NCBI GenBank assembly: GCA_032250995.1 | Contig: JAVVFF010000001.1 | Span: 1 to 54,732 of the forward strand | Source: Methylophaga sp. | GTDB lineage: Bacteria; Pseudomonadota; Gammaproteobacteria; Nitrosococcales; Methylophagaceae | Length of the DNA: 54,732 bases | Direction of reading: 5' to 3' | Shown here: one piece after another, positions 1,235 through 54,356 of the stretch | How the letters are laid out: every line of letters starts with the position of its first letter | How positions within the stretch are numbered: position 1 is the stretch's first letter | Translations under genes and position numbers: made by a program | Notes under the pieces: model-generated | Database searches by the model: none | What the model was told of the DNA's origin: nothing | Seen by the model: the letters and a program-made list of their open reading frames with translations, nothing else

Positions 1235-3304
1235 TCAGTAACGAAGATTGATCCCGGTATACACGAACCTGCCCGGTTGTGGAAAGCCAAAGCTTGTTTC
1301 GTAATCTTCATCAAACAGGTTCTCCGCTCCAGCATAAACATCGGCTTGACCACCAGCAAAGGTATATTTCAAGTGGGTATTGACCAGCTCAAAGCTATCG
1401 AGCTTATCGCGTAGCGCCGGATCAACCCTGCTGAAATGATTTTGCGAACCAATACGCACCACATCCCCGGTTAACTGCCACTGGGATGTGATCTGGTAAA
1501 TTGCCTGCAGACTGGCTTTATGCGTTGGTCTATTTTGCAACCGGTCGGTTAAAACACCAGCAGATCTATCCTTACTGTCTAAAAAGCCTAATCCTGCTCG
1601 CACCGTCAGTTTTTCGCTGAATTTATAGGCACCGTTAATATCAATACCTTTAAACCTCAGTTCATCGCGGTTTTCAAAGGGCCCACCCTGTTCAGCACGT
1701 TCGATAAAATCATCGACATCAGTTTGCCAGACAGCGATATTTAAATCGGCCCGCTGCCATTGATTACGCAAACCCGCCTCATAATGTTTGGCACGTTGAA
1801 AACCCAGCCCAAGATTGCCCGTACCTTGTTCATACAGTTGCCGTATCGTAGGCGCATCCACCTTGCGCGCAACGGTGCCATACATTGTACTAGCCTCATT
1901 TAACGGCTTGCTGAGTGAAAATTGCGCGCTGTGTGCTGTCTCGTCACTGCCACCGGAAATATCCAGTTCATGCCTGCCCACCCCGACCACAGCGGTCAGG
2001 TCATAAGGTAAAGCCTGCGTTAATTCAACAGCATAGGAACGAATGTTCAGATCTTCATCGGTTGCGGTTGTCGATAACGGTGTAGCTGGACATGATTTGT
2101 TATTGTTGTTGTCGCCACCGCCACCGCCACCGCCACCGCCACCGCCACCGCCAGTGATTGTGCATTCCAGACCATTTTCGTCATAGTCTTCATTACGATG
2201 ATCGAGACTAAAAGCAATCTGGCTGCCAGTCGCAGGCAACTGACCTATTAATTGGGCATGCACCCCTTGCGTTTGCGTTTCTTCTTCGCGTAAAAAGGTG
2301 TTATTAGTAGTGAAACTATTGAGGTTTAAATCATCGTATCTGGCGGTACGTTCTTGAAGTTGATTACCAAAAAACCACAGACGGCCGGCCCAGTTATCAG
2401 TAAAGGCATAATCGGCGCCAAGTTGCAGTGAATAACCACGCTGCGATTCAACCCGTTCAAAACGTGCCCGTTGCGCAAATTCATCAACTTCGTTGTCGAG
2501 CGTAATCGGTGGCTTGCCGAACTCGCCCTCAAGATAGCTGGCAAAAAAACCAATGGTCAATTTATCCGTCAGGTCACGATGGTAAGATAGCACCAGGTTC
2601 TCACGACGGTTGTCACTGTTGTTGCGTCCGTTATTGTCCTGAAAGTTGTCGGCGGTGTTTGCCAATGGACTGCTGAAATCATTGGAGACAGAAAAATCAT
2701 CGCGGTCTCTTACGCCATAACCCAAAAAGAAATCCTGATCAGCATCGCCGTAGCCCACCTGACCATTGACCAGCCAGAAATCATCACTGCCACGCTCGAG
2801 CTTTGAAGCCGCTTTGAAGCCATCCTGTACACCACGGGTTTTAATATCAATAACTCCCGCCATGCCTCCATCACCATATAAGACGGATGAACTGCCCACA
2901 TTCAAATCAATACGGCCAATCGCAAAAGCGGGTATCAAACTGGGATCAAACTGACCATCAAAAGTTGAATTGAACGGAATCCCATTGACAAGCAATTTAA
3001 TCTGCCGTGTCCGCAGCCCACGAATATCGATGCGGGGCGTGCCATCACCGCCATACCGCACATTGACACTGGGTGTTAACCGCAAAGCATCTTCCAGACT
3101 TCTGGCACCAAGCAATTCCAATTCCTGTTGATCGATTTGATATTGGGTGCCAGCTTCCGGTTGCGTGTTTACCACCAGATTCCCCAGTTCATAGACCGGT
3201 TCCTCAGTGGTAGCAAATACCGGGGCTGAAAAAGCAGCTGTACACAAAGCAATGGATATATTTTTACCTATATATCGATAGGTAAAAGTTGATGACGTTT
3301 TCAC
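1235..3304 (-). CDS. TonB-dependent outer-membrane receptor
   Basis: Signal peptide, TonB-box-like LVVNT, plug motifs (LEDALRLTPSV, IDIRG, LLVNGIP, GGMAGVIDIKT), C-terminal ENLFDEDY...PGR...GINLRY with terminal aromatic residue; GTG start with AGAGG RBS. Confidence 0.95.
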   Translation of the reverse strand: MKTSSTFTYRYIGKNISIALCTAAFSAPVFATTEEPVYELGNLVVNTQPEAGTQYQIDQQELELLGARSLEDALRLTPSVNVRYGGDGTPRIDIRGLRTRQIKLLVNGIPFNSTFDGQFDPSLIPAFAIGRIDLNVGSSSVLYGDGGMAGVIDIKTRGVQDGFKAASKLERGSDDFWLVNGQVGYGDADQDFFLGYGVRDRDDFSVSNDFSSPLANTADNFQDNNGRNNSDNRRENLVLSYHRDLTDKLTIGFFASYLEGEFGKPPITLDNEVDEFAQRARFERVESQRGYSLQLGADYAFTDNWAGRLWFFGNQLQERTARYDDLNLNSFTTNNTFLREEETQTQGVHAQLIGQLPATGSQIAFSLDHRNEDYDENGLECTITGGGGGGGGGGGGGDNNNNKSCPATPLSTTATDEDLNIRSYAVELTQALPYDLTAVVGVGRHELDISGGSDETAHSAQFSLSKPLNEASTMYGTVARKVDAPTIRQLYEQGTGNLGLGFQRAKHYEAGLRNQWQRADLNIAVWQTDVDDFIERAEQGGPFENRDELRFKGIDINGAYKFSEKLTVRAGLGFLDSKDRSAGVLTDRLQNRPTHKASLQAIYQITSQWQLTGDVVRIGSQNHFSRVDPALRDKLDSFELVNTHLKYTFAGGQADVYAGAENLFDEDYETSFGFPQPGRFVYTGINLRY
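2114..2152 (-). repeat. In-frame hexanucleotide tandem repeat (GGTGGC on - strand, about 6.5 units) encoding Gly13
   Basis: (gccacc)6+gcc on the + strand, inside the TonB receptor gene. Confidence 0.95.
3252..3279. promoter_or_regulatory. ModE-box match inside the 5' coding region of the TonB receptor
   Basis: ATGG-a-TATATT-tttacc-TATATA-t-CGAT versus consensus ATCG-N-TATATA-N6-TATATA-N-CGAT: 2 mismatches. Confidence 0.65.
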
Positions 3305-3319
3305 CTCAGACCTCTTTAG

Positions 3320-3871
3320 TTATTTTCTTTGTTTACGAAGACTGCGCCAGGCCATGAAACCAATCAAGCCACCAACGCTGCCAAATATAAAATGGGTAAT
3401 AAAGGGATATGCAATCCCATGCCGGAAAGAATCAGTTTCGACACCGGCAACCATGATAAGACCAACCTTGAAAGCCGGCTTAACCGTATGCACCAGTCCG
3501 GCGACTAATGGCAACAGCCACAACGTGACGGGCTGTGTCGACAGGCGGCGGTAAATCACATCCAGCACAATACCCTGACTGAGCAAAATCAATGCAGCAG
3601 CTAAGTTATCACGGATAATTAATGCTGCAACCAGCCCGCCGGCACCAGCCAACGTTGCTGTGTAAGCATACGGCGCACTACACCGCACAAAAATCAGGAT
3701 GGCCATCAGCGTCAGACCCTGACGACCGGGCAACTCCAGCCCAAAACGAAAGGTTTCATGCAGCACCATCGCTAATGCACCTGCCAGGAAAATCAGCAGA
3801 TGACGAACACGTGCCGAATGCAGCCGTTCAGAACTGCTTGAGATAGTTTTTTGCAGCAACTTGCCAGACAT
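3320..3871 (-). CDS. Small multi-pass inner-membrane protein, ECF S-component-like
   Basis: About 183 aa with 5-6 hydrophobic segments and a LPGRQG loop after TM1; ATG at 3871 with GAGGAG RBS, overlapping the end of the upstream gene. The family call is inference from size and topology. Confidence 0.6.
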   Translation of the reverse strand: MSGKLLQKTISSSSERLHSARVRHLLIFLAGALAMVLHETFRFGLELPGRQGLTLMAILIFVRCSAPYAYTATLAGAGGLVAALIIRDNLAAALILLSQGIVLDVIYRRLSTQPVTLWLLPLVAGLVHTVKPAFKVGLIMVAGVETDSFRHGIAYPFITHFIFGSVGGLIGFMAWRSLRKQRK

Positions 3872-4568
3872 TGGCTTGCTCCTCAACGGGTTCAACAATC
3901 AGACATGGCTCACCATTGAGCCAAATCGCCCGAGGCCATGCGCCCATCATGATCTTTGCACTTTTATTGCTCAGTACCGCACCCTCTATGCTCTGCACAA
4001 CGGCAATATCCGTGGCATTTTGTAATTCAGACAGTGTCAGGGTTTGCTCAGCATGATCGCGCATCCCGGCCAGCCACAATAAACGACCATCGTTACCGGC
4101 AGCACATAAACAAGCGGCGGCTAAAGCGCCAATAACACCATCTTCAGTGCCCGTTAAACCAAATAAACCCAACTGGGCAACTTCAGCTAAATCTCTTGCT
4201 TGTGTCTGGGTTACAACACGGTGTTTACAAAGCACGCCGAATCTCGCCAGGGCATGACTCAGATTTGTTTCTGGTAATAAACACAGACCGGCATCAGCGC
4301 CTTCAGCGCTATTTTCTAACAGGTAGTTTTTGCAGAGCTGCTCGATGGCTTTCAGTGAAGCTGGTACTTCAACGACTAGACAGGCAGCGCTGTTATGCGA
4401 CGTAAAGGGCACTAAAGGACTCATCAGTAATTGATGTCGGGTAACAAACCGACAACGTCCCAGCGCATTATCATTGATGGCGGCACACAAAGCGCGGGCA
4501 TGAAACCCCGTTCCCCGACTTTCTAAATTGTCGGTGTCATCGATGCCAATAAATAAACAACTTGCCAT
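3828..4568 (-). CDS. Stand-alone TiaS-like catalytic-domain protein (GIDDTD family)
   Basis: FIGIDDTD..ESRGTG, RHQLL..P.VPFTSHNSA, DAGLC and GVIGALAA match the N-terminal catalytic domain of archaeal tRNA(Ile2) agmatidine synthetase TiaS; at about 246 aa it lacks the OB and Zn-ribbon domains. ATG at 4568 preferred over TTG at 4583. Confidence 0.75.
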   Translation of the reverse strand: MASCLFIGIDDTDNLESRGTGFHARALCAAINDNALGRCRFVTRHQLLMSPLVPFTSHNSAACLVVEVPASLKAIEQLCKNYLLENSAEGADAGLCLLPETNLSHALARFGVLCKHRVVTQTQARDLAEVAQLGLFGLTGTEDGVIGALAAACLCAAGNDGRLLWLAGMRDHAEQTLTLSELQNATDIAVVQSIEGAVLSNKSAKIMMGAWPRAIWLNGEPCLIVEPVEEQANVWQVAAKNYLKQF

Positions 4569-4590: not shown

Positions 4591-4618
4591 ATCGACGTAT
4601 TCCATCATATATAACGAG
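4591..4618. promoter_or_regulatory. ModE-box match upstream of the TiaS-like gene
   Basis: ATCG-a-CGTATT-ccatca-TATATA-a-CGAG; one half-site reads CGTTATATA on the - strand; about 22 nt upstream of the ATG and directly downstream of the ModE-family gene. Confidence 0.7.
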
Positions 4619-4651: not shown

Positions 4652-4999
4652 TCAGGACTTTAATAGTTTGCTGATTGCAGCTAAATCGTCCTCGACCGAT
4701 TTAGTCGCTTTTTGTTCAATTTGCCTGTAAAGGCCAAGCACTGATTGCCCGAAAACTGTCACCTCCGCACCACCACCATGACTGCCACCTTTAACCGTTT
4801 CAACCAACGGTTTGGTAAAGCTGCTGTTCATGGCATTCACCAGATCCCAGGCACGTTTATAAGACATGCCCATTGCCCGACCGGCAGCAGAAATTGAACC
4901 ATGTTGTTGAATCGCTTCCAGCAGGTCCGCTTTACCGGGACCGATGGCAACCACATCATCATTATGAAAACGGATTTTAATACTGACTGCTTTTGACAT
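4652..4999 (-). CDS. modE: ModE-family transcriptional regulator, N-terminal winged-helix domain only
   Basis: IGPGKADLLEAIQQHGSISAAGRAMGMSYKRAWDLVNAMN..F..PLV....GG..GGGA is the ModE wHTH; 115 aa, no TOBE/Mop domains. Confidence 0.9.
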   Translation of the reverse strand: MSKAVSIKIRFHNDDVVAIGPGKADLLEAIQQHGSISAAGRAMGMSYKRAWDLVNAMNSSFTKPLVETVKGGSHGGGAEVTVFGQSVLGLYRQIEQKATKSVEDDLAAISKLLKS

Positions 5000-5038
5000 G
5001 CCCGAAACACTTGAAGATATACAAGCCAAATATCATAC

Positions 5039-48899: not shown

Positions 48900-50261
48900 T
48901 TATTTGATCCAAATCTGCTTGGCATTAACAAATTCTTTAATACCCTGCGGGCCCAGTTCACGGCCATAACCGGAACCTTTTACACCACCACTGGGTAGCC
49001 GTGGATCGGTTTTAACAATACCGTTAATTGCCACCTGTCCAGCTTCAATCTGCATGGCCAGCGTCTTCGCCAAATCAGCATTTTCTGTCCATACCCCGGC
49101 ACCGAGGCCATATTCGGTGTCATTGGCCATTTCCAAAGCATGATCTACATCATCAGCCTTAATAATCACCATCACCGGACCAAAGGTCTCCTCACGAAAA
49201 GCACACATGGTCGGCGTCACATCGATTAATAACGTGACCGGATAGAAAAAGCCATCCCCCTCCGGCAAATTGCCACCCAGCAGACATTTGGCGCCGGCAG
49301 CAATGGTATCTTCAACTTGGCGGTGTAAATTCAGTTGTAAATCTTCGCGGGCAATCGGACCGATATCGGTATTGGCTTGCAATGGATCACCGAGCTGTAA
49401 TTTACTGAGTCGCTGTTTGACCAATTCAACAAAGCGATCATGGACATCCGCCTCAACGATTATTCGTTTAGCAGCAATACAAGATTGACCGGCATTAATA
49501 ATCCGCGACAGACAAATAACATCGGCAGCCTGGTGCAGATTGGCATCATTTAGCACCAGCACCGGATCGGAGCCGCCCAGTTCCAAAACACAGGGTTTGA
49601 TTTCGCTGCCAGCAATCGCAGCAACTTTACGACCGGCACCGCCGGAGCCGGTAAATGACACTGCTGCGATACGGGGGTCGCGAATCGCCAACTCTACATC
49701 CGGGGTTTCCAGTGGCAGATTAACCATAATATTGTCCGGTGCACCGGCTTTTAAGAACGCATTGGCAATAGCCTGCGCGGTTCGGGGCACATGCGGATCA
49801 TGTTTCATCACGCAGGTATTGCCCGCCATCAGGGCCGGTGCTAAATAACGAAATGCCAGCCATAACGGTGCATTCCACGGCAAAATACCCAGCAACGTCC
49901 CCAGCGGCTGATAGGTCACATAACTGAGGCTGGCATCCGATGGCAGCGTTTCATCGGCAAGATAGGCCGCAGCATGATCTGCGTAATACTCGGCGCAGTT
50001 CGCGGCCTTTTCGACTTCCGGCACGCCTTCTTTAATCGGTTTGCCCATTTCCAATGCCATTATTTCAGCAATATCATGCTTTTCGGCACGCATTTGTTTG
50101 GCAACGGCTTTCAGTACTTTGGCACGCTCGGCAAAGCTTGTGTCGCGCCACGCGGTAAAGGCAGCAGTGGCTTCGCCAATGCGAGCGTACATTGCATTTT
50201 TATCAAGCGATGGGAAAGGTTCGAGCACTTGCCCGGTAAAAGGGTTGGTTGCAGTTAGCAT
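48900..50261 (-). CDS. doeC: NAD(P)-dependent aldehyde dehydrogenase (SSADH-like; DoeC by context)
   Basis: PWNAP, FTGS, LELGG, GQSC, EETFGP, SGYGRE; ATG at 50261 with GAGGA RBS. Confidence 0.8.
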   Translation of the reverse strand: MLTATNPFTGQVLEPFPSLDKNAMYARIGEATAAFTAWRDTSFAERAKVLKAVAKQMRAEKHDIAEIMALEMGKPIKEGVPEVEKAANCAEYYADHAAAYLADETLPSDASLSYVTYQPLGTLLGILPWNAPLWLAFRYLAPALMAGNTCVMKHDPHVPRTAQAIANAFLKAGAPDNIMVNLPLETPDVELAIRDPRIAAVSFTGSGGAGRKVAAIAGSEIKPCVLELGGSDPVLVLNDANLHQAADVICLSRIINAGQSCIAAKRIIVEADVHDRFVELVKQRLSKLQLGDPLQANTDIGPIAREDLQLNLHRQVEDTIAAGAKCLLGGNLPEGDGFFYPVTLLIDVTPTMCAFREETFGPVMVIIKADDVDHALEMANDTEYGLGAGVWTENADLAKTLAMQIEAGQVAINGIVKTDPRLPSGGVKGSGYGRELGPQGIKEFVNAKQIWIK

Positions 50262-50268
50262 AATGTCC

Positions 50269-51525
50269 TCAGGAAGATTGTTTAGCGGTGGTTTTTTTAT
50301 CGTCTTTGGCGGTCTCGTTTTGCCGCGCACTATCCAGATTCAGCAGTTTCTTACTGTTGCTGGCTGGCTTAACAATAAAATCCCTGTCCATAGTGAAAAA
50401 CGATTCGCAACCATCTTCGGTAATATGAAGGGTGTCAGAAATACCGCAAGTTTTGTCACCATCAACACCCCACATCCACGGAATAATATGGAAGGTCATG
50501 CCCGGTTTCAGTACCGCGGACTCACCTTGTTTGAGGCTGACGATATAGCCCTCATCCCAACTGGGTGGAAAAGCAATACCAATGGAATATCCCGAACGGG
50601 TCACCAGGCGCGCACCAATATCGTTTTTAGTGATGATATTGCGGATCATATTGTCGGCATCCGAGACAGTCATGCCCGGCTGAAAATTGTTATGCACGGC
50701 ATCCAGCGCCATTTTCATAATCTCCTGCGCTTTATACATTGATGAGCTGAGTTTACCGAGCACAATCGTGCGCATCATCGCCGTATGATAACGCCGGTAA
50801 CAACCGCCCACTTCCAGAAAAACATGCTCATCGGGCTGCACGACACGGCCTTCCCAGGTTGCATGACCAATCATGGTCCGTGGGCCGGAAGTGACATATG
50901 GCATTACCGCAGGTGGCTCACCACCGGCTTTGAACATGGCAGAACTAATTGCCGCGCCAATCTCATTTTCAGTGACACCGGCTTCAGTGACGTCAATACC
51001 CGCCTGCATACCCGCCTCAGTAGCTCTCGCGGCATTTTGCATCAGGGCAATCTCCAGCGGTGACTTGCAGACCCGGCCTTCTTCGACAATACCAAAACAA
51101 TCCAGCAATTTACCGTCGGTCAGCGTGGTATGAATGCAATCCTGATGATAAGCTGGGAAGAAATAGCTGTTACGCTCATAACCAATACGTTTTTTATCCA
51201 GACCAAATTCACGCAGCGCATCCACCAGCATCTGAATGGCATCACCGGTATCCGGATACGGCCGGGTGATCTCCACCCAGGTGCGGTGAATCACATTGGA
51301 TTCTTCCAGCTTACGGGTGATCATAAACGGCTCATCTTCAAGCGGTACGACCAGCGCCTGAAAGAAGGAATACCCGGTGGTCTGATAATCGGTCAGATAC
51401 ATGATATTTTCCGGGTCGGAAATCACCACCGCATCCATAAAGCGCTCGGCTATCCGCTCACGCAATTCACTTAATCGTCGTTCATATTCTTCAAACGGGA
51501 AGGTCATATCATCGCGATGTCTCAT
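50269..51525 (-). CDS. doeA: Ectoine hydrolase (M24 peptidase fold)
   Basis: F..EEY..RL, DPEN..YLT.Y, H.TW, E.GGC.RRYH..M.RT, R.GYSIGI.FPP.W.E, L.PGMTFH; the standard M24 metal ligands are replaced as in DoeA/EutD. Confidence 0.88.
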   Translation of the reverse strand: MRHRDDMTFPFEEYERRLSELRERIAERFMDAVVISDPENIMYLTDYQTTGYSFFQALVVPLEDEPFMITRKLEESNVIHRTWVEITRPYPDTGDAIQMLVDALREFGLDKKRIGYERNSYFFPAYHQDCIHTTLTDGKLLDCFGIVEEGRVCKSPLEIALMQNAARATEAGMQAGIDVTEAGVTENEIGAAISSAMFKAGGEPPAVMPYVTSGPRTMIGHATWEGRVVQPDEHVFLEVGGCYRRYHTAMMRTIVLGKLSSSMYKAQEIMKMALDAVHNNFQPGMTVSDADNMIRNIITKNDIGARLVTRSGYSIGIAFPPSWDEGYIVSLKQGESAVLKPGMTFHIIPWMWGVDGDKTCGISDTLHITEDGCESFFTMDRDFIVKPASNSKKLLNLDSARQNETAKDDKKTTAKQSS

Positions 51526-52799
51526 GCTGCCTCCCGCATCATCACATTATCTGTGGCTTTAATCAGAATTTGCAGGCCTTCCTGCAAATCGGCCTCAGGC
51601 GTGGTCAACGGCGGGATCAATTTCACCACCCTACCACCGGTACCACAACTGGCAATTATCAGACCGGATTCAAAACACTGACTGACAATTTCTTTGGCAC
51701 GCTCACCATTACCGACATCAAGGCCCAGGATCATACCTTTACCGGTCAGATTGACCTGAGGATGTCGATCCACCAATGGCTGCAAACTGTCCGCCATCAT
51801 AGCGCCATGAGCTTTAACGGTTTGCATCAGTTCATCATCATCAAAATAAGTCAGCGCCTGATCGCCGGCAATAAACGAGATATTCTGGCCGCGGAAAGTG
51901 CCGGTATGTTCGCCCGGTGACCAATGCTGGTCGTGTTCGGGTTTGACCAGATTCATGGCCATCGGCGTGCCCAGACCACCAATACCTTTGGCAAGACAAA
52001 TAATATCGGGATCCAGATCCAAATCATCAAAACTGAAAAACGATCCGGTACGGCCAACACCCACCTGAATATCATCAACAATCAGCAAGGCATCAACCTC
52101 TTTGGCCAGTGTCGCCAATGCCTGCAGCCAGCCTTTTTCGGCGACTTTAACACCGCCTTCGGCTTGGATGGTTTCCAGTAAAAACGCCGCCGGCGGGACA
52201 ATACCGCTGGAGCTATCAGCATAAATAGCGCGCAGCTGTTCGATGCTTTGCATGCCACAACCGAGCTCACAGCCCGGACAAACCGTTTCGCAACCGAACG
52301 GAAAATGTTTGACATAATTCAAAGGTACGCCAGCAGCATTACGAAAATATTGATTGGCGGTGGCGCTCAGCGCCCCAAGGGTCATGCCATGAAAACCATG
52401 GCTGAAAGCAACAATATCCTGCCGACCGGTCACCCGCCGCGCCAGTTTCATTGCAGCTTCGACGCCATTGGTGCCCGTCGGACCCATAAACTGCATTTTG
52501 TGCGGCATATTGCGCGGTTCTAGAATGGTCTTGGTGAAATGTTCCATATATTGCCGTTTGGCCGTGGTATGCATATCAAGACTATGCGTTACGCCATTGG
52601 CCTGGATATAGGCGATCACCGCATCCGTCATTCGCTGATTGTTATGGCCGAAATTCAGCACACCGGCACCGGCAAAAAAGTCGATATATTCACGACCATT
52701 TTCATCAATCTGCCGGGCATTCAACGCTTTATCAAACACCACCGGATAAACCCGGCAATAAGCCCGAATTGCCGATTCTCGTTGTTCAAAAATACTCAT
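51522..52799 (-). CDS. doeD: Diaminobutyrate aminotransferase (class III PLP, EctB-like; DoeD by context)
   Basis: IFEQRES.IR.YCR..P, IDFFAGAG.LN.GHN, GPTGTN.VEAA, DDIQ.G.GRTG, LAKG, W.PGEH.GTFRG. Confidence 0.85.
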   Translation of the reverse strand: MSIFEQRESAIRAYCRVYPVVFDKALNARQIDENGREYIDFFAGAGVLNFGHNNQRMTDAVIAYIQANGVTHSLDMHTTAKRQYMEHFTKTILEPRNMPHKMQFMGPTGTNGVEAAMKLARRVTGRQDIVAFSHGFHGMTLGALSATANQYFRNAAGVPLNYVKHFPFGCETVCPGCELGCGMQSIEQLRAIYADSSSGIVPPAAFLLETIQAEGGVKVAEKGWLQALATLAKEVDALLIVDDIQVGVGRTGSFFSFDDLDLDPDIICLAKGIGGLGTPMAMNLVKPEHDQHWSPGEHTGTFRGQNISFIAGDQALTYFDDDELMQTVKAHGAMMADSLQPLVDRHPQVNLTGKGMILGLDVGNGERAKEIVSQCFESGLIIASCGTGGRVVKLIPPLTTPEADLQEGLQILIKATDNVMMREAA

Positions 52800-52818
52800 T
52801 TATTTCTCCTCAGGTATT

Positions 52819-54003
52819 TCACGTCTTACCGACGCTGGGCAGTTCCTCCGGAACGGGTGCGCCACAAAGGCGCGAAAACAAAGCAGTGACCAACGGAATG
52901 AGCCGGTCGTTAAAATCATAAAGTGGACTGTGACATGACGCCTGATGCTCTGGACCATCATCACTACCAATCAGCGCAAAAGCACCGGGAATTTCCTGCA
53001 GGTAATAACTAAAGTCTTCGGAGGCCATAATCGGCAAGCGAATATCACTGTGCACCCCATCAAAGCCAAACAAAATCTGCCATTGTTCACGCACCTGCAA
53101 AGCCTGCTGGGCGTGGTTAATAGTGGCTTCATAACGTGGATAAATATTAACCTCGCAATGCACACCGTAACTGGCCGCAGTCTGTTGACTGATTTCAGTG
53201 ATAAGACCGTTAACTATTTCCCGAGTTGCTTTATCAGAAACACGGATACTGCCGCCAATTTTGGCCTGTTGAGGAATCACTGTCGGTGCGCTGGGCGCTT
53301 CAATAGAGGTCACACTCACCACAGCGGCCTGTTGTGGTGGCAAACGCCGGCTGATGATTTGCTGCAAATTCAAGGTAATGGCACTGGCTGCCAATACCGG
53401 ATCCCGGCACAGTTCCGGCTGACTGGCATGGCCGCCAAGGCCGTCAACAATTAATTCAAATGTGCCATTACCACACATCACAATGTCATCAGGGCAAACC
53501 AATTTACCAAACGGGATGGCTGGCCAGTTATGCCAGCCATAGATCGCATCAACTCCTTCCAAAGCGCCATCGGCAATCATTTCCCGGGCGCCATGGCCAC
53601 CTTCTTCTGCCGGCTGGAAAATTAAGGTTACCGGACCAGGTAAAAGCTGTTCGTGCAGTTTCAGCCAACGCGCGGTGGCCATCAGGGTGGCCGTATGTCC
53701 ATCATGACCGCAGGCATGCATGCAGCCTGCATGCAGAGAGGTCCAGTTTTTTTGGGTATTTTCATTGATTGGCAACGCGTCAATATCACCCCGCAGCGCG
53801 ATGTGCGGGCCTTTACCAGTTGGATTCAACCAAGCCAGCGTGCCAGTACCGGCGCAGGCACGCCAGTTAATATTAAGCGTGCTGAGCATATCGCGGATGC
53901 GATCTGCGGTGCGGTATTCCTGCCAGCCCAACTCAGGATGCGCGTGTAAATCACGACGTAACACTTCAGCGTTGGTGATGGTTTCCTGCCAGACATCTGA
54001 CAT
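52819..54003 (-). CDS. doeB: M20D amidohydrolase (N-alpha-acetyl-diaminobutyrate deacetylase DoeB by context)
   Basis: RRDLHAHPEL, LRGDIDAL, MHACGHDGH, FQPAEE, SEDFS, H...YDF; first gene of the doe cluster. Confidence 0.8.
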   Translation of the reverse strand: MSDVWQETITNAEVLRRDLHAHPELGWQEYRTADRIRDMLSTLNINWRACAGTGTLAWLNPTGKGPHIALRGDIDALPINENTQKNWTSLHAGCMHACGHDGHTATLMATARWLKLHEQLLPGPVTLIFQPAEEGGHGAREMIADGALEGVDAIYGWHNWPAIPFGKLVCPDDIVMCGNGTFELIVDGLGGHASQPELCRDPVLAASAITLNLQQIISRRLPPQQAAVVSVTSIEAPSAPTVIPQQAKIGGSIRVSDKATREIVNGLITEISQQTAASYGVHCEVNIYPRYEATINHAQQALQVREQWQILFGFDGVHSDIRLPIMASEDFSYYLQEIPGAFALIGSDDGPEHQASCHSPLYDFNDRLIPLVTALFSRLCGAPVPEELPSVGKT

Positions 54004-54356
54004 GGCCCCTCCCCCTGATAAGGATCGCAAAGCACGATCCAGTAATAACTATGCAACATTACACTGTAAAAAATTTCAACGTATTGCAAGCAAAAAAATC
54101 AGCTTTGCAGTCATGCTGATTTATTGACCCTTAAAATAGCTGGCTTTGCAGACCTTATCTGCGGCATTAAAAGGGGTTTACTAATGAATGCTAATACGGT
54201 GATCGGCGAATGAAATTTTACCGTGACTTGAGGCTTTTTAAGACTTATAAAGTGGCTTACGATTCCGTCAAAATTTGAGCAGCCTCTTGGTAAGCCTTTC
54301 TAAGTAAATAAATTTTCGTTTTTACAAGCCGTTATCAAAACATTGCTAACCCGTTT

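What the first reader, a model, noticed from the sequence alone, without database searches (positions are those of the whole stretch)
3828..4568. Bacterial stand-alone TiaS catalytic domain with no tRNA-binding domains
Seen: GIDDTD, a downstream Thr (RGTG), the P..P.T.hN motif and GxIGALAA. Known: archaeal TiaS uses this domain for ATP-dependent phosphorylation of the C2 carbonyl of tRNA(Ile2) C34 before agmatine attack, and needs extra domains to bind tRNA; bacteria use TilS for that codon. Inference: this short version acts on a small molecule, activating an amide, pyrimidine or pterin carbonyl for amination or hydrolysis. That would be a new activity, probably on the imported ligand.
Basis: partly seen in the sequence, partly recalled or inferred. 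Interest (0 to 1): 0.75.

Follow-up and report, generated by a model that had tools for sequence, protein, structure and literature searches.

The report
TiaS-like kinase in tungsten-scavenging operon
This gene encodes only the ATP-using core of an archaeal tRNA-modifying enzyme and sits in an operon with vitamin-type import genes that, across bacteria and archaea, goes with tungsten and molybdenum genes, so it likely phosphorylates an imported tungsten/molybdenum cofactor so that the cell can reuse it.

Summary
Observation confirmed. Window 3828-4568 (minus strand) encodes a 246-aa protein whose first ~160 residues have the TiaS kinase fold, with DDTD and the Thr18-equivalent kept. It is neither TiaS nor Mmp11, and the genome has TilS. 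It heads an operon: ModE-type gene, ModE-like box, this gene, ECF S-component-fold protein, TonB receptor, divergent TupA-like protein. The family is widespread and tied to tungsten/molybdenum. It occurs with tungsten-type AOR genes in 39 of 40 Bacteroidales (63 of 211 without it) and 21 of 22 Bacillota (30 of 58). A Moco/tungsten riboswitch heads its operon in 10 of 20 Bacillota loci. A Mo-storage protein is adjacent in 16 of 80 archaeal-type loci. The W/Mo link is strong (~0.9); the substrate is not shown. Best guess (0.4): a kinase that traps or reactivates imported W/Mo-pterin. Main rival (0.25): it acts on polytungstate or other metal-oxo species. This scan noted the same cassette three times on other genomes. 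My searches found no paper on it. New here: riboswitch, co-occurrence controls, and no enrichment in genomes lacking moaC.

The parts
3828..4568 (-). Stand-alone TiaS/Mmp11-type kinase-fold protein, 246 aa (residues ~1-160 TiaS fold; ~163-246 a family-specific tail of untested fold)
4593..4616 (-). ModE-box-like imperfect palindrome just upstream of the gene
   Evidence: 15 of 18 matches to a recalled ModE consensus, above all 30 shuffles; same place in the 8 nearest loci L001-L008; position
4652..5029 (-). ModE-type winged-helix protein without molybdate-binding domain (probable start near 4999, ~115 aa)
   Evidence: (TIGR00637 E 6.7e-26, just under cut-off)
3320..3898 (-). ECF S-component-fold membrane protein (probable ATG at 3871; overlaps the 3' end of the kinase gene)
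   Evidence: top 15 structural matches all S-component-fold proteins; YkoE 5edl Z 13.3, rmsd 3.6, 163 aligned; PF09819 in 3 of 11 members; directly downstream of the kinase gene in 65 of 81 loci
1235..3304 (-). TonB-dependent outer-membrane receptor, 689 aa, with a 13-glycine tract flanked by two cysteines
   Evidence: run of 8 or more Gly in 17 of 43 full-length receptors, with mixed codons
381..1220 (-). Periplasmic binding protein related to TupA but lacking the TTTS and SRGD motifs of true TupA
   Evidence: (NF041772 51 bits vs cut-off 400); a true tupA lies elsewhere in the genome

Best explanation
The protein has the TiaS kinase fold with its acidic DDTD motif and Thr18-equivalent, and is likely a Mg-ATP-dependent kinase that phosphorylates a tungsten/molybdenum-pterin (cofactor or breakdown product) brought in by the neighbouring importer, which would trap it and feed the metal or the whole cofactor back into cofactor assembly. 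Shown: fold, conserved residues, operon, ModE-like box, riboswitch in relatives, co-occurrence with W/Mo genes. Inferred: the operon is switched on when Mo/W or its cofactor is scarce; the TonB receptor, the altered TupA-like protein and the solitary S component carry an organic complex rather than the bare oxyanion, as BtuB plus BtuM do for B12; the enzyme transfers a phosphate from ATP, perhaps through phospho-Thr20, to an oxygen of the ligand held by the family-specific R44-H45-Q46, S57-H58-N59-S60 and D160-G161-R162 residues. The gain is probably the scarce metal, not the pterin, because carriers keep their own pterin synthesis.
For: (1) Three unrelated importer types used for vitamins and metal chelates accompany the gene: S component plus TonB receptor (S in 70 and receptor cluster in 62 of 81 loci); full ECF with CbiQ/EcfT (L011, L032 and archaeal-type loci); FecCD/BtuCDF-type ABC (17 of 20 Bacillota loci). 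(2) Carriers already have oxyanion importers: the own genome has modA and tupA, and the operon's own binding protein has lost the TupA motifs. (3) RF01055 Moco/W riboswitch over gathering score at the head of the operon in 10 of 20 Bacillota loci; 4 of 4 alignments viewed lack stem P3, the type PMC2408646 links to tungsten cofactor (passages). (4) AOR (PF01314) in 39 of 40 Bacteroidales with the gene vs 63 of 211 without; among moaC-positive genomes 38 of 96 with AOR carry it and 0 of 17 without; Bacillota 21 of 22 vs 30 of 58. (5) Surface proteins resembling the sulfite-oxidase (pterin-binding) fold lie beside the gene in 11 loci (PF00174 E 1e-10 for L105); a related Cys-less family, PruR, binds pterins (PMC13259868 section 7). 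(6) D10, D11, T12, D13, T20, R44, H45, N59 are kept in at least 97% of 388 distinct sequences.
Against: No substrate or activity was tested. No sign of rescue of pterin auxotrophs: moaC is in 47 of 50 carriers and 38 of 40 Bacteroidales carriers; only 1 of 6 AOR-positive, moaC-negative genomes has the gene. In many archaeal-type loci it sits between a Mo-storage gene and tupABC, which handle oxyanions. Riboswitch and ModE control fit metal supply as well as cofactor supply. PruR's pocket is said to be probably too small for Moco, and my profile of the surface proteins hit only SorA at E 0.28, not PruR. Three cyanobacterial loci carry it beside modA-type or nifH-type genes, so it is not tungsten-only. 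G288 has a lone copy with neither moaC nor AOR found. Within the own genus the link to tupA is not significant (9 of 27 vs 0 of 10, p 0.08). 27 of 81 loci show no Mo/W gene in the DNA held. Related genomes are not independent, so the p-values overstate.
Confidence: 0.4

Rival explanations
1. The substrate is inorganic. The importers take up polytungstate, polymolybdate or thio-oxyanions, and the enzyme phosphorylates a metal-oxo oxygen to break them down to tungstate or to load or unload the Mo/W storage protein.
For: A MoSto homologue (PDB 2ogx, E 2e-64) lies within 300 nt in 16 of 80 archaeal-type loci, TupA within 3 kb in 18 of 80, and MoSto-like genes are also near it in L028 and L037. MoSto itself uses ATP to build polyoxometalates (PMC6448029 passages). 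The conserved pocket is rich in Arg and His. Poly-Gly tracts in 17 of 43 receptors could cradle a large anion (inference). Carriers keep moaC.
Against: S components are known mostly as carriers of organic vitamins, apart from the Co/Ni types (recalled). The sulfite-oxidase-like surface proteins are unexplained. Mo release from MoSto is ATP-independent. Most carriers examined show no MoSto gene nearby.
Confidence: 0.25
2. The enzyme acts inside the cell in W/Mo cofactor maturation or repair, or as an auto- or protein kinase through Thr20, and shares the operon only because it belongs to the same starvation regulon.
For: Copies occur with no chelate importer (L012, L060, L099, L082; L108 has riboswitch, small Cys protein and mobB). 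A Cys-rich tail is fused in 35 of 120 longer forms and is a separate neighbour or tail in 7 of 20 Bacillota loci. The paralogue Mmp11 is a methanogen marker. TiaS is titled a dual protein and RNA kinase (reference title only).
Against: The gene is directly followed by the S component in 65 of 81 loci and pairs independently with three importer types. It is patchy among W users (38 of 96 AOR- and moaC-positive Bacteroidales), unlike a core maturation step.
Confidence: 0.15
3. One reading: a W/Mo-metallophore complex is imported and the enzyme activates an amide carbonyl with ATP to hydrolyse it and free the metal.
For: TonB receptors and FecBCD-type systems carry metal chelates. TiaS activates a ring carbonyl by phosphorylation (recalled).
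Against: No chelator-biosynthesis family recurs among the neighbour clusters that I annotated. One ligand shared by methanogens, Bacteroidales, Bacillota, cyanobacteria and Proteobacteria is easier to explain by a universal cofactor or an inorganic species.
Confidence: 0.12
4. It modifies tRNA as TiaS does, alone or with a separate tRNA-binding partner.
For: Same catalytic fold and motifs; some databases label members TiaS.
Against: No room for the OB and zinc-ribbon domains; TilS present; patchy (9 of 37 genomes in the genus); context is W/Mo uptake; TiaS is on a very long branch from the family (one TiaS row only).
Confidence: 0.02

Closest known systems
TiaS, archaeal tRNA(Ile2) 2-agmatinylcytidine synthetase (PDB 3amt, 3amu, 3au7, 4rvz, 5xob, 3u02; NF040849; PF22641)
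   Same: N-terminal kinase fold (rmsd about 2 A over ~155 residues), DDTD motif, Thr at the Thr18 position, the Asn of TRGN, GxIGALAA.
   Different: No agmatine-binding, OB or zinc-ribbon domain detected; TRGNG becomes TSHNS, PRL becomes RHQL, the Arg of KGRG is replaced by an acidic residue here; own ~85-residue tail; transporter operon.
Methanogenesis marker protein 11 (TIGR03280), function unknown
   Same: Its C-terminal half is the best HMM match (E 2.4e-11); also a TiaS-type domain without tRNA-binding parts.
   Different: Mmp11 has an extra ~135-aa N-terminal domain that is absent here; score 43 vs cut-off 256. No Mmp11 sequence could be fetched for residue-level comparison.
BtuB plus BtuM, ECF-CbrT and BtuCDF cobalamin uptake with salvage enzymes
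   Same: The same three importer architectures (TonB receptor plus solitary S component; full ECF; FecCD-type ABC) and an attached processing enzyme; BtuM (8ovv) is among the fold matches (Z 8.5).
   Different: Control is by a ModE-like box or Moco/W riboswitch; no cobalamin riboswitch was found in the 31 loci scanned; receptor far below the BtuB cut-off (119 vs 600 bits).
Known Mo/W supply systems: ModABC, TupABC, WtpABC, MolABC, MOT1, MoSto, ModE, Moco/Tuco riboswitch
   Same: Shared regulators and frequent gene neighbours.
   Different: Those importers carry the bare oxyanion and, as far as I recall and in the review passages read, use no TonB receptor, S component or kinase.
PruR (Cys-less sulfite-oxidase-fold pterin-binding protein)
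   Same: Surface proteins next to some family members resemble this fold and lack the Mo-ligating Cys.
   Different: PruR signals to a diguanylate cyclase and binds small pterins; no sequence match to its structures was obtained; not present in this window.

Membership tests
TiaS | Kinase (TCKD) fold | tested here: met
TiaS | DDTD motif and Thr18 | tested here: met
   alignment; conservation in 388 sequences, (roles of the residues recalled)
TiaS | Agmatine-binding ferredoxin-like domain (PF08489) | tested here: inconclusive
   no Pfam match, profile match ends near residue 155, but residues 163-246 were barely tested by the fold search and were not folded alone
TiaS | OB-fold and zinc-ribbon tRNA-binding domains; full length ~420 aa | tested here: not met
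   246 aa; NF040849 19.7 bits vs cut-off 600, covering 3-150 of 422; no PF23783 match
TiaS | Phosphorylates C34 of tRNA(Ile2) and adds agmatine | not testable with these tools
   needs assay; TilS present in the genome
Mmp11 (TIGR03280) | N-terminal ~135-aa domain and score over cut-off | tested here: not met
   match covers only 135-283 of 292, 43.3 vs 255.8 bits
ECF S component (neighbour 3320-3898) | Six-helix S-component fold | tested here: met
   (top 15 matches, Z 13.3 to 7.8; helical-bundle caution applies); Foldseek best E 0.057 to the same protein; PF09819 in 3 of 11 members
ECF S component (neighbour 3320-3898) | Partner EcfT/EcfA module | tested here: inconclusive
   adjacent in L011, L032 and 12 of 80 archaeal-type loci; one EcfT query found nothing in the own genome, which is 92% complete
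TupA (neighbour 381-1220) | TTTS and SRGD tungstate-site motifs (motif roles recalled) | tested here: not met
   51 vs 400 bits
ModE regulon | ModE box upstream and repression by molybdate | tested here: inconclusive
   box-like palindrome conserved in 9 of 9 nearest loci; binding and regulation untested; the adjacent ModE-type protein lacks the molybdate-binding domain

The most novel reading that the evidence does not exclude
A widespread, B12-style salvage route for the tungsten/molybdenum cofactor in bacteria and archaea: dedicated outer-membrane receptor, ECF or BtuCDF-type importer and a TiaS-fold cofactor kinase, letting cells harvest scarce tungsten from other organisms' cofactor. It would give the TiaS fold its first small-molecule reaction and a lead on methanogenesis marker 11.
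Probability: 0.35. Interest if true: 0.85.

Novelty: new variant of a known kind. Interest (0 to 1): 0.7.

Why it matters
The bacterial Mo/W import described in the review passages I read is of bare oxyanions, and how pterins cross bacterial membranes is stated to be unknown (PMC13259868). An importer-plus-kinase cassette under ModE or tungsten-cofactor-riboswitch control would define a second route to these metals, relevant to tungsten formate dehydrogenases and aldehyde oxidoreductases in marine methylotrophs, anaerobes and methanogens. It is directly testable: a small soluble enzyme, a 183-aa S component and defined candidate ligands. Either leading outcome (cofactor salvage or polyoxometalate handling) would be new chemistry for a fold known so far only as a tRNA kinase.

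Tried and rejected
Single-sequence PDB search found no TiaS; only the profile did. Complex prediction of the kinase with the S component plus ATP/Mg: no verdict, score 0.00, not evidence either way. No RNA holder listed for the operon. No relative in viral contigs with the one pattern used. Promoter/terminator scan at chance level. No Mmp11 sequence or methanogen genome could be reached, so the idea that a neighbour is Mmp11's missing N-terminal domain was tested only by HMM and failed. My first reading that the genome lacks modA was a false negative, corrected. The idea that the enzyme replaces MogA is unlikely: a ~175-aa PF00994 protein and MoeA are present. No Moco riboswitch in the window stretch or 10 other loci. 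The B. thetaiotaomicron sub-cut-off ring with TIGR03280 was not traced. The Atlas returned only unnamed or TiaS_TCKD-labelled clusters and did not hold the surface protein. The tail (163-246) was not folded alone. Literature: searches returned no paper describing this family or cassette; subscription journals are mostly not held and no supplements were read, so ModE-regulon tables may list these genes. The original TiaS papers were not available; their mechanism is recalled.

Full report
Observation. The ORF at 3828-4568 (minus strand) encodes 246 aa; 4611 relatives were found among 6077 candidates, the best ones of the same length, and 1224 clusters at 50% identity. A profile of 90 homologues matches the N-terminal ~155 residues of TiaS in the PDB, and the model superposes on TiaS at about 2 A. 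T20 aligns with TiaS Thr18. The match stops near residue 155-162. The best family model is the C-terminal half of Mmp11, then TiaS, both far under cut-off. The genome has TilS. Nearest named relatives are Methylophaga.

Operon. On the same strand: a ModE-type helix-turn-helix gene (4652-5029), an imperfect palindrome like a ModE box (4593-4616), the kinase gene, an overlapping membrane protein with the ECF S-component fold, a TonB receptor and a TupA-related binding protein that lacks TTTS and SRGD. The palindrome was scored against a consensus recalled from memory in 77 upstream regions: 13 beat all 30 shuffles, including the window and all 8 nearest loci at the same place. The genome encodes formate dehydrogenase, MoaA/C/E, MoeA, MobA/B and TupA, ModA and a MogA/MoaB-sized protein, so the operon is an extra to ordinary oxyanion uptake and cofactor synthesis.

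Conservation of context. In the best 80 of 593 species-genome loci plus the window, the S component occurs in 70 of 81 and the receptor cluster in 62 of 81 (crude ORF caller, some opposite-strand calls in GC-rich loci). The S gene directly follows in 65 of 81, and 54 of 81 hold at least one Mo/W gene cluster; of the 27 without, 8 are under 10 kb. Neighbours include fdh operons, moaA/C/E, moeA, mobA/B, fdhD, modA, wtpA, tupA, TOBE and, in cyanobacteria, nifH-type genes. In Bacillota (23 of 301 genomes; 20 regions from 18 genomes fetched) the partner is a FecCD-type ABC system in 17 of 20 and no S component was found. In 80 metagenome loci nearest a Methanocorpusculum-type member (best 80 of 571; archaeal origin not checked locus by locus) a MoSto homologue is within 300 nt in 16, TupA within 3 kb in 18 and an S component in 21; 35 of the 42 loci of 8 kb or more have one of S or a Mo/W gene.

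Controls. MoaC is in 47 of 50 carrier genomes (50 of the 80 given). In an even draw of 251 Bacteroidales, 40 carry the gene, 113 moaC and 102 AOR; 38 and 39 of the 40 carriers have moaC and AOR, against 75 and 63 of 211 non-carriers; none of 17 moaC-positive, AOR-negative genomes has it. In Bacillota AOR is in 21 of 22 carriers (G511, a broken fragment, left out) and 30 of 58 non-carriers taken in handle order out of 278. In the own genus 9 of 37 carry it; all 9 have tupA and none of 10 without tupA does, p 0.08. Kin are not independent and many genomes are incomplete.

Regulation in relatives. RF01055 lies on the operon's strand at its head in 10 of 20 Bacillota regions (L089, L090, L093, L094, L097, L098, L100, L103, L105, L108); in L091, L095 and L104 the head is outside the region, and L099 has one on a neighbouring operon. 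The 4 alignments viewed lack P3, which PMC2408646 (passages) associates with tungsten cofactor users. None was found in 11 other loci, the window stretch included.

Mechanism. Across 388 distinct sequences D10, D11, T12, D13, T20, G21, R44, H45, Q46, T56, S57, H58, N59, D92, G144, G147, D160, G161 and R162 are kept in 92% or more. The acidic motif and Thr suggest that Mg-ATP binding and phosphoryl transfer are retained (TiaS roles recalled; only the titles of the TiaS papers were seen). RHQ, SHNS and DGR are family-specific and suit an anionic acceptor (inference). The importer types are those used for vitamins and chelates, and sulfite-oxidase-like surface proteins without the Mo-ligating Cys occur in 11 loci, with a similar-looking domain fused to true TupA in L011. 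PruR, a Cys-less member of that fold, binds pterins but probably not Moco (PMC13259868 section 7). I therefore favour a W/Mo-pterin kinase (0.4). Against it: no enrichment in moaC-less genomes (1 of 6), the MoSto-kinase-tupABC arrangement, MoSto's own ATP-driven metal-oxo chemistry (PMC6448029 passages), and lone copies such as G288. A metal-oxo substrate (0.25), an intracellular maturation or regulatory role (0.15), a metallophore (0.12) and tRNA (0.02) are the rivals. A role in W/Mo supply as such is about 0.9.

Comparison and novelty. It works like the kinase half of TiaS and like the processing enzyme of a B12-type uptake cassette, but fails membership of TiaS and Mmp11. The family is a compact group far from the single TiaS row in my tree of 33 sequences. 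Searches found no paper on it; some searches served background. Reviews were seen as passages only; no supplements were read. Three earlier notes of this scan describe the same cassette on other genomes; my reading was written before I saw them, and I tested the cassette, fold and W/Mo link myself. Verdict: a real, apparently undescribed W/Mo-linked enzyme and importer family; new variant of a known kind; interest 0.7.

Noticed in passing
window 2111-2165 (minus strand, inside the TonB receptor): 13-glycine tract between two cysteines; runs of 8-23 Gly at a similar place in 17 of 43 full-length receptors, with mixed codons, so probably selected as protein. Bacillota Ig-like surface neighbours often start with GDGxGGG.
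   Followed up: partly
L089:7362-7574, L091:7254-7466, L092:8141-8344, L108:8509-8718: ~70-aa protein with a C..F..D.E...SCYNCRxRRW motif directly beside the kinase gene, and fused to its C-terminus in 35 of 120 longer forms; no Pfam match.
   Followed up: partly
L174:911-1717 and 16 other archaeal-type loci: Clear MoSto homologues (E 2e-64 to the Azotobacter beta subunit), one gene copy seen per locus, in methanogen-type contigs beside tupABC.
   Followed up: partly
L011:8490-9947, L032:3239-4624, L074:294-1673: True TupA with a long C-terminal extension; in L011 it resembles a sulfite-oxidase-like domain (resemblance by eye).
   Followed up: no
L039:6114-8781, L069:126-2711: Cyanobacterial copies lie near a nifH-type gene and an HTH regulator that clusters with ModE-family proteins, with modA-type genes in L069 and L052; reminiscent of alternative-nitrogenase regulators (recalled).
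   Followed up: no
L115-L121 (for example L120:2825-3816): In Methanomicrobia-type loci the gene follows a MotA/ExbB-family and a DUF2149 gene, and in L116 and L118 abuts a formylmethanofuran-dehydrogenase-like operon.
   Followed up: no
L083-L088: Bacteroidales cassettes add a ~305-aa lipoprotein with no family match between S component and receptor, and often a T9SS-sorted protein.
   Followed up: no
L110:733-3254: A 3.8-kb record listed as a Pimelobacter simplex plasmid consists almost only of this gene and two neighbours.
   Followed up: no
window 48903-54030 (minus strand): Ectoine degradation genes (doeB, transaminase, doeA, aldehyde dehydrogenase); ordinary.
   Followed up: no
control genome Bacteroides thetaiotaomicron: Rings below cut-off with TIGR03280 although it has no moaC match; the matching protein was not seen.
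   Followed up: no
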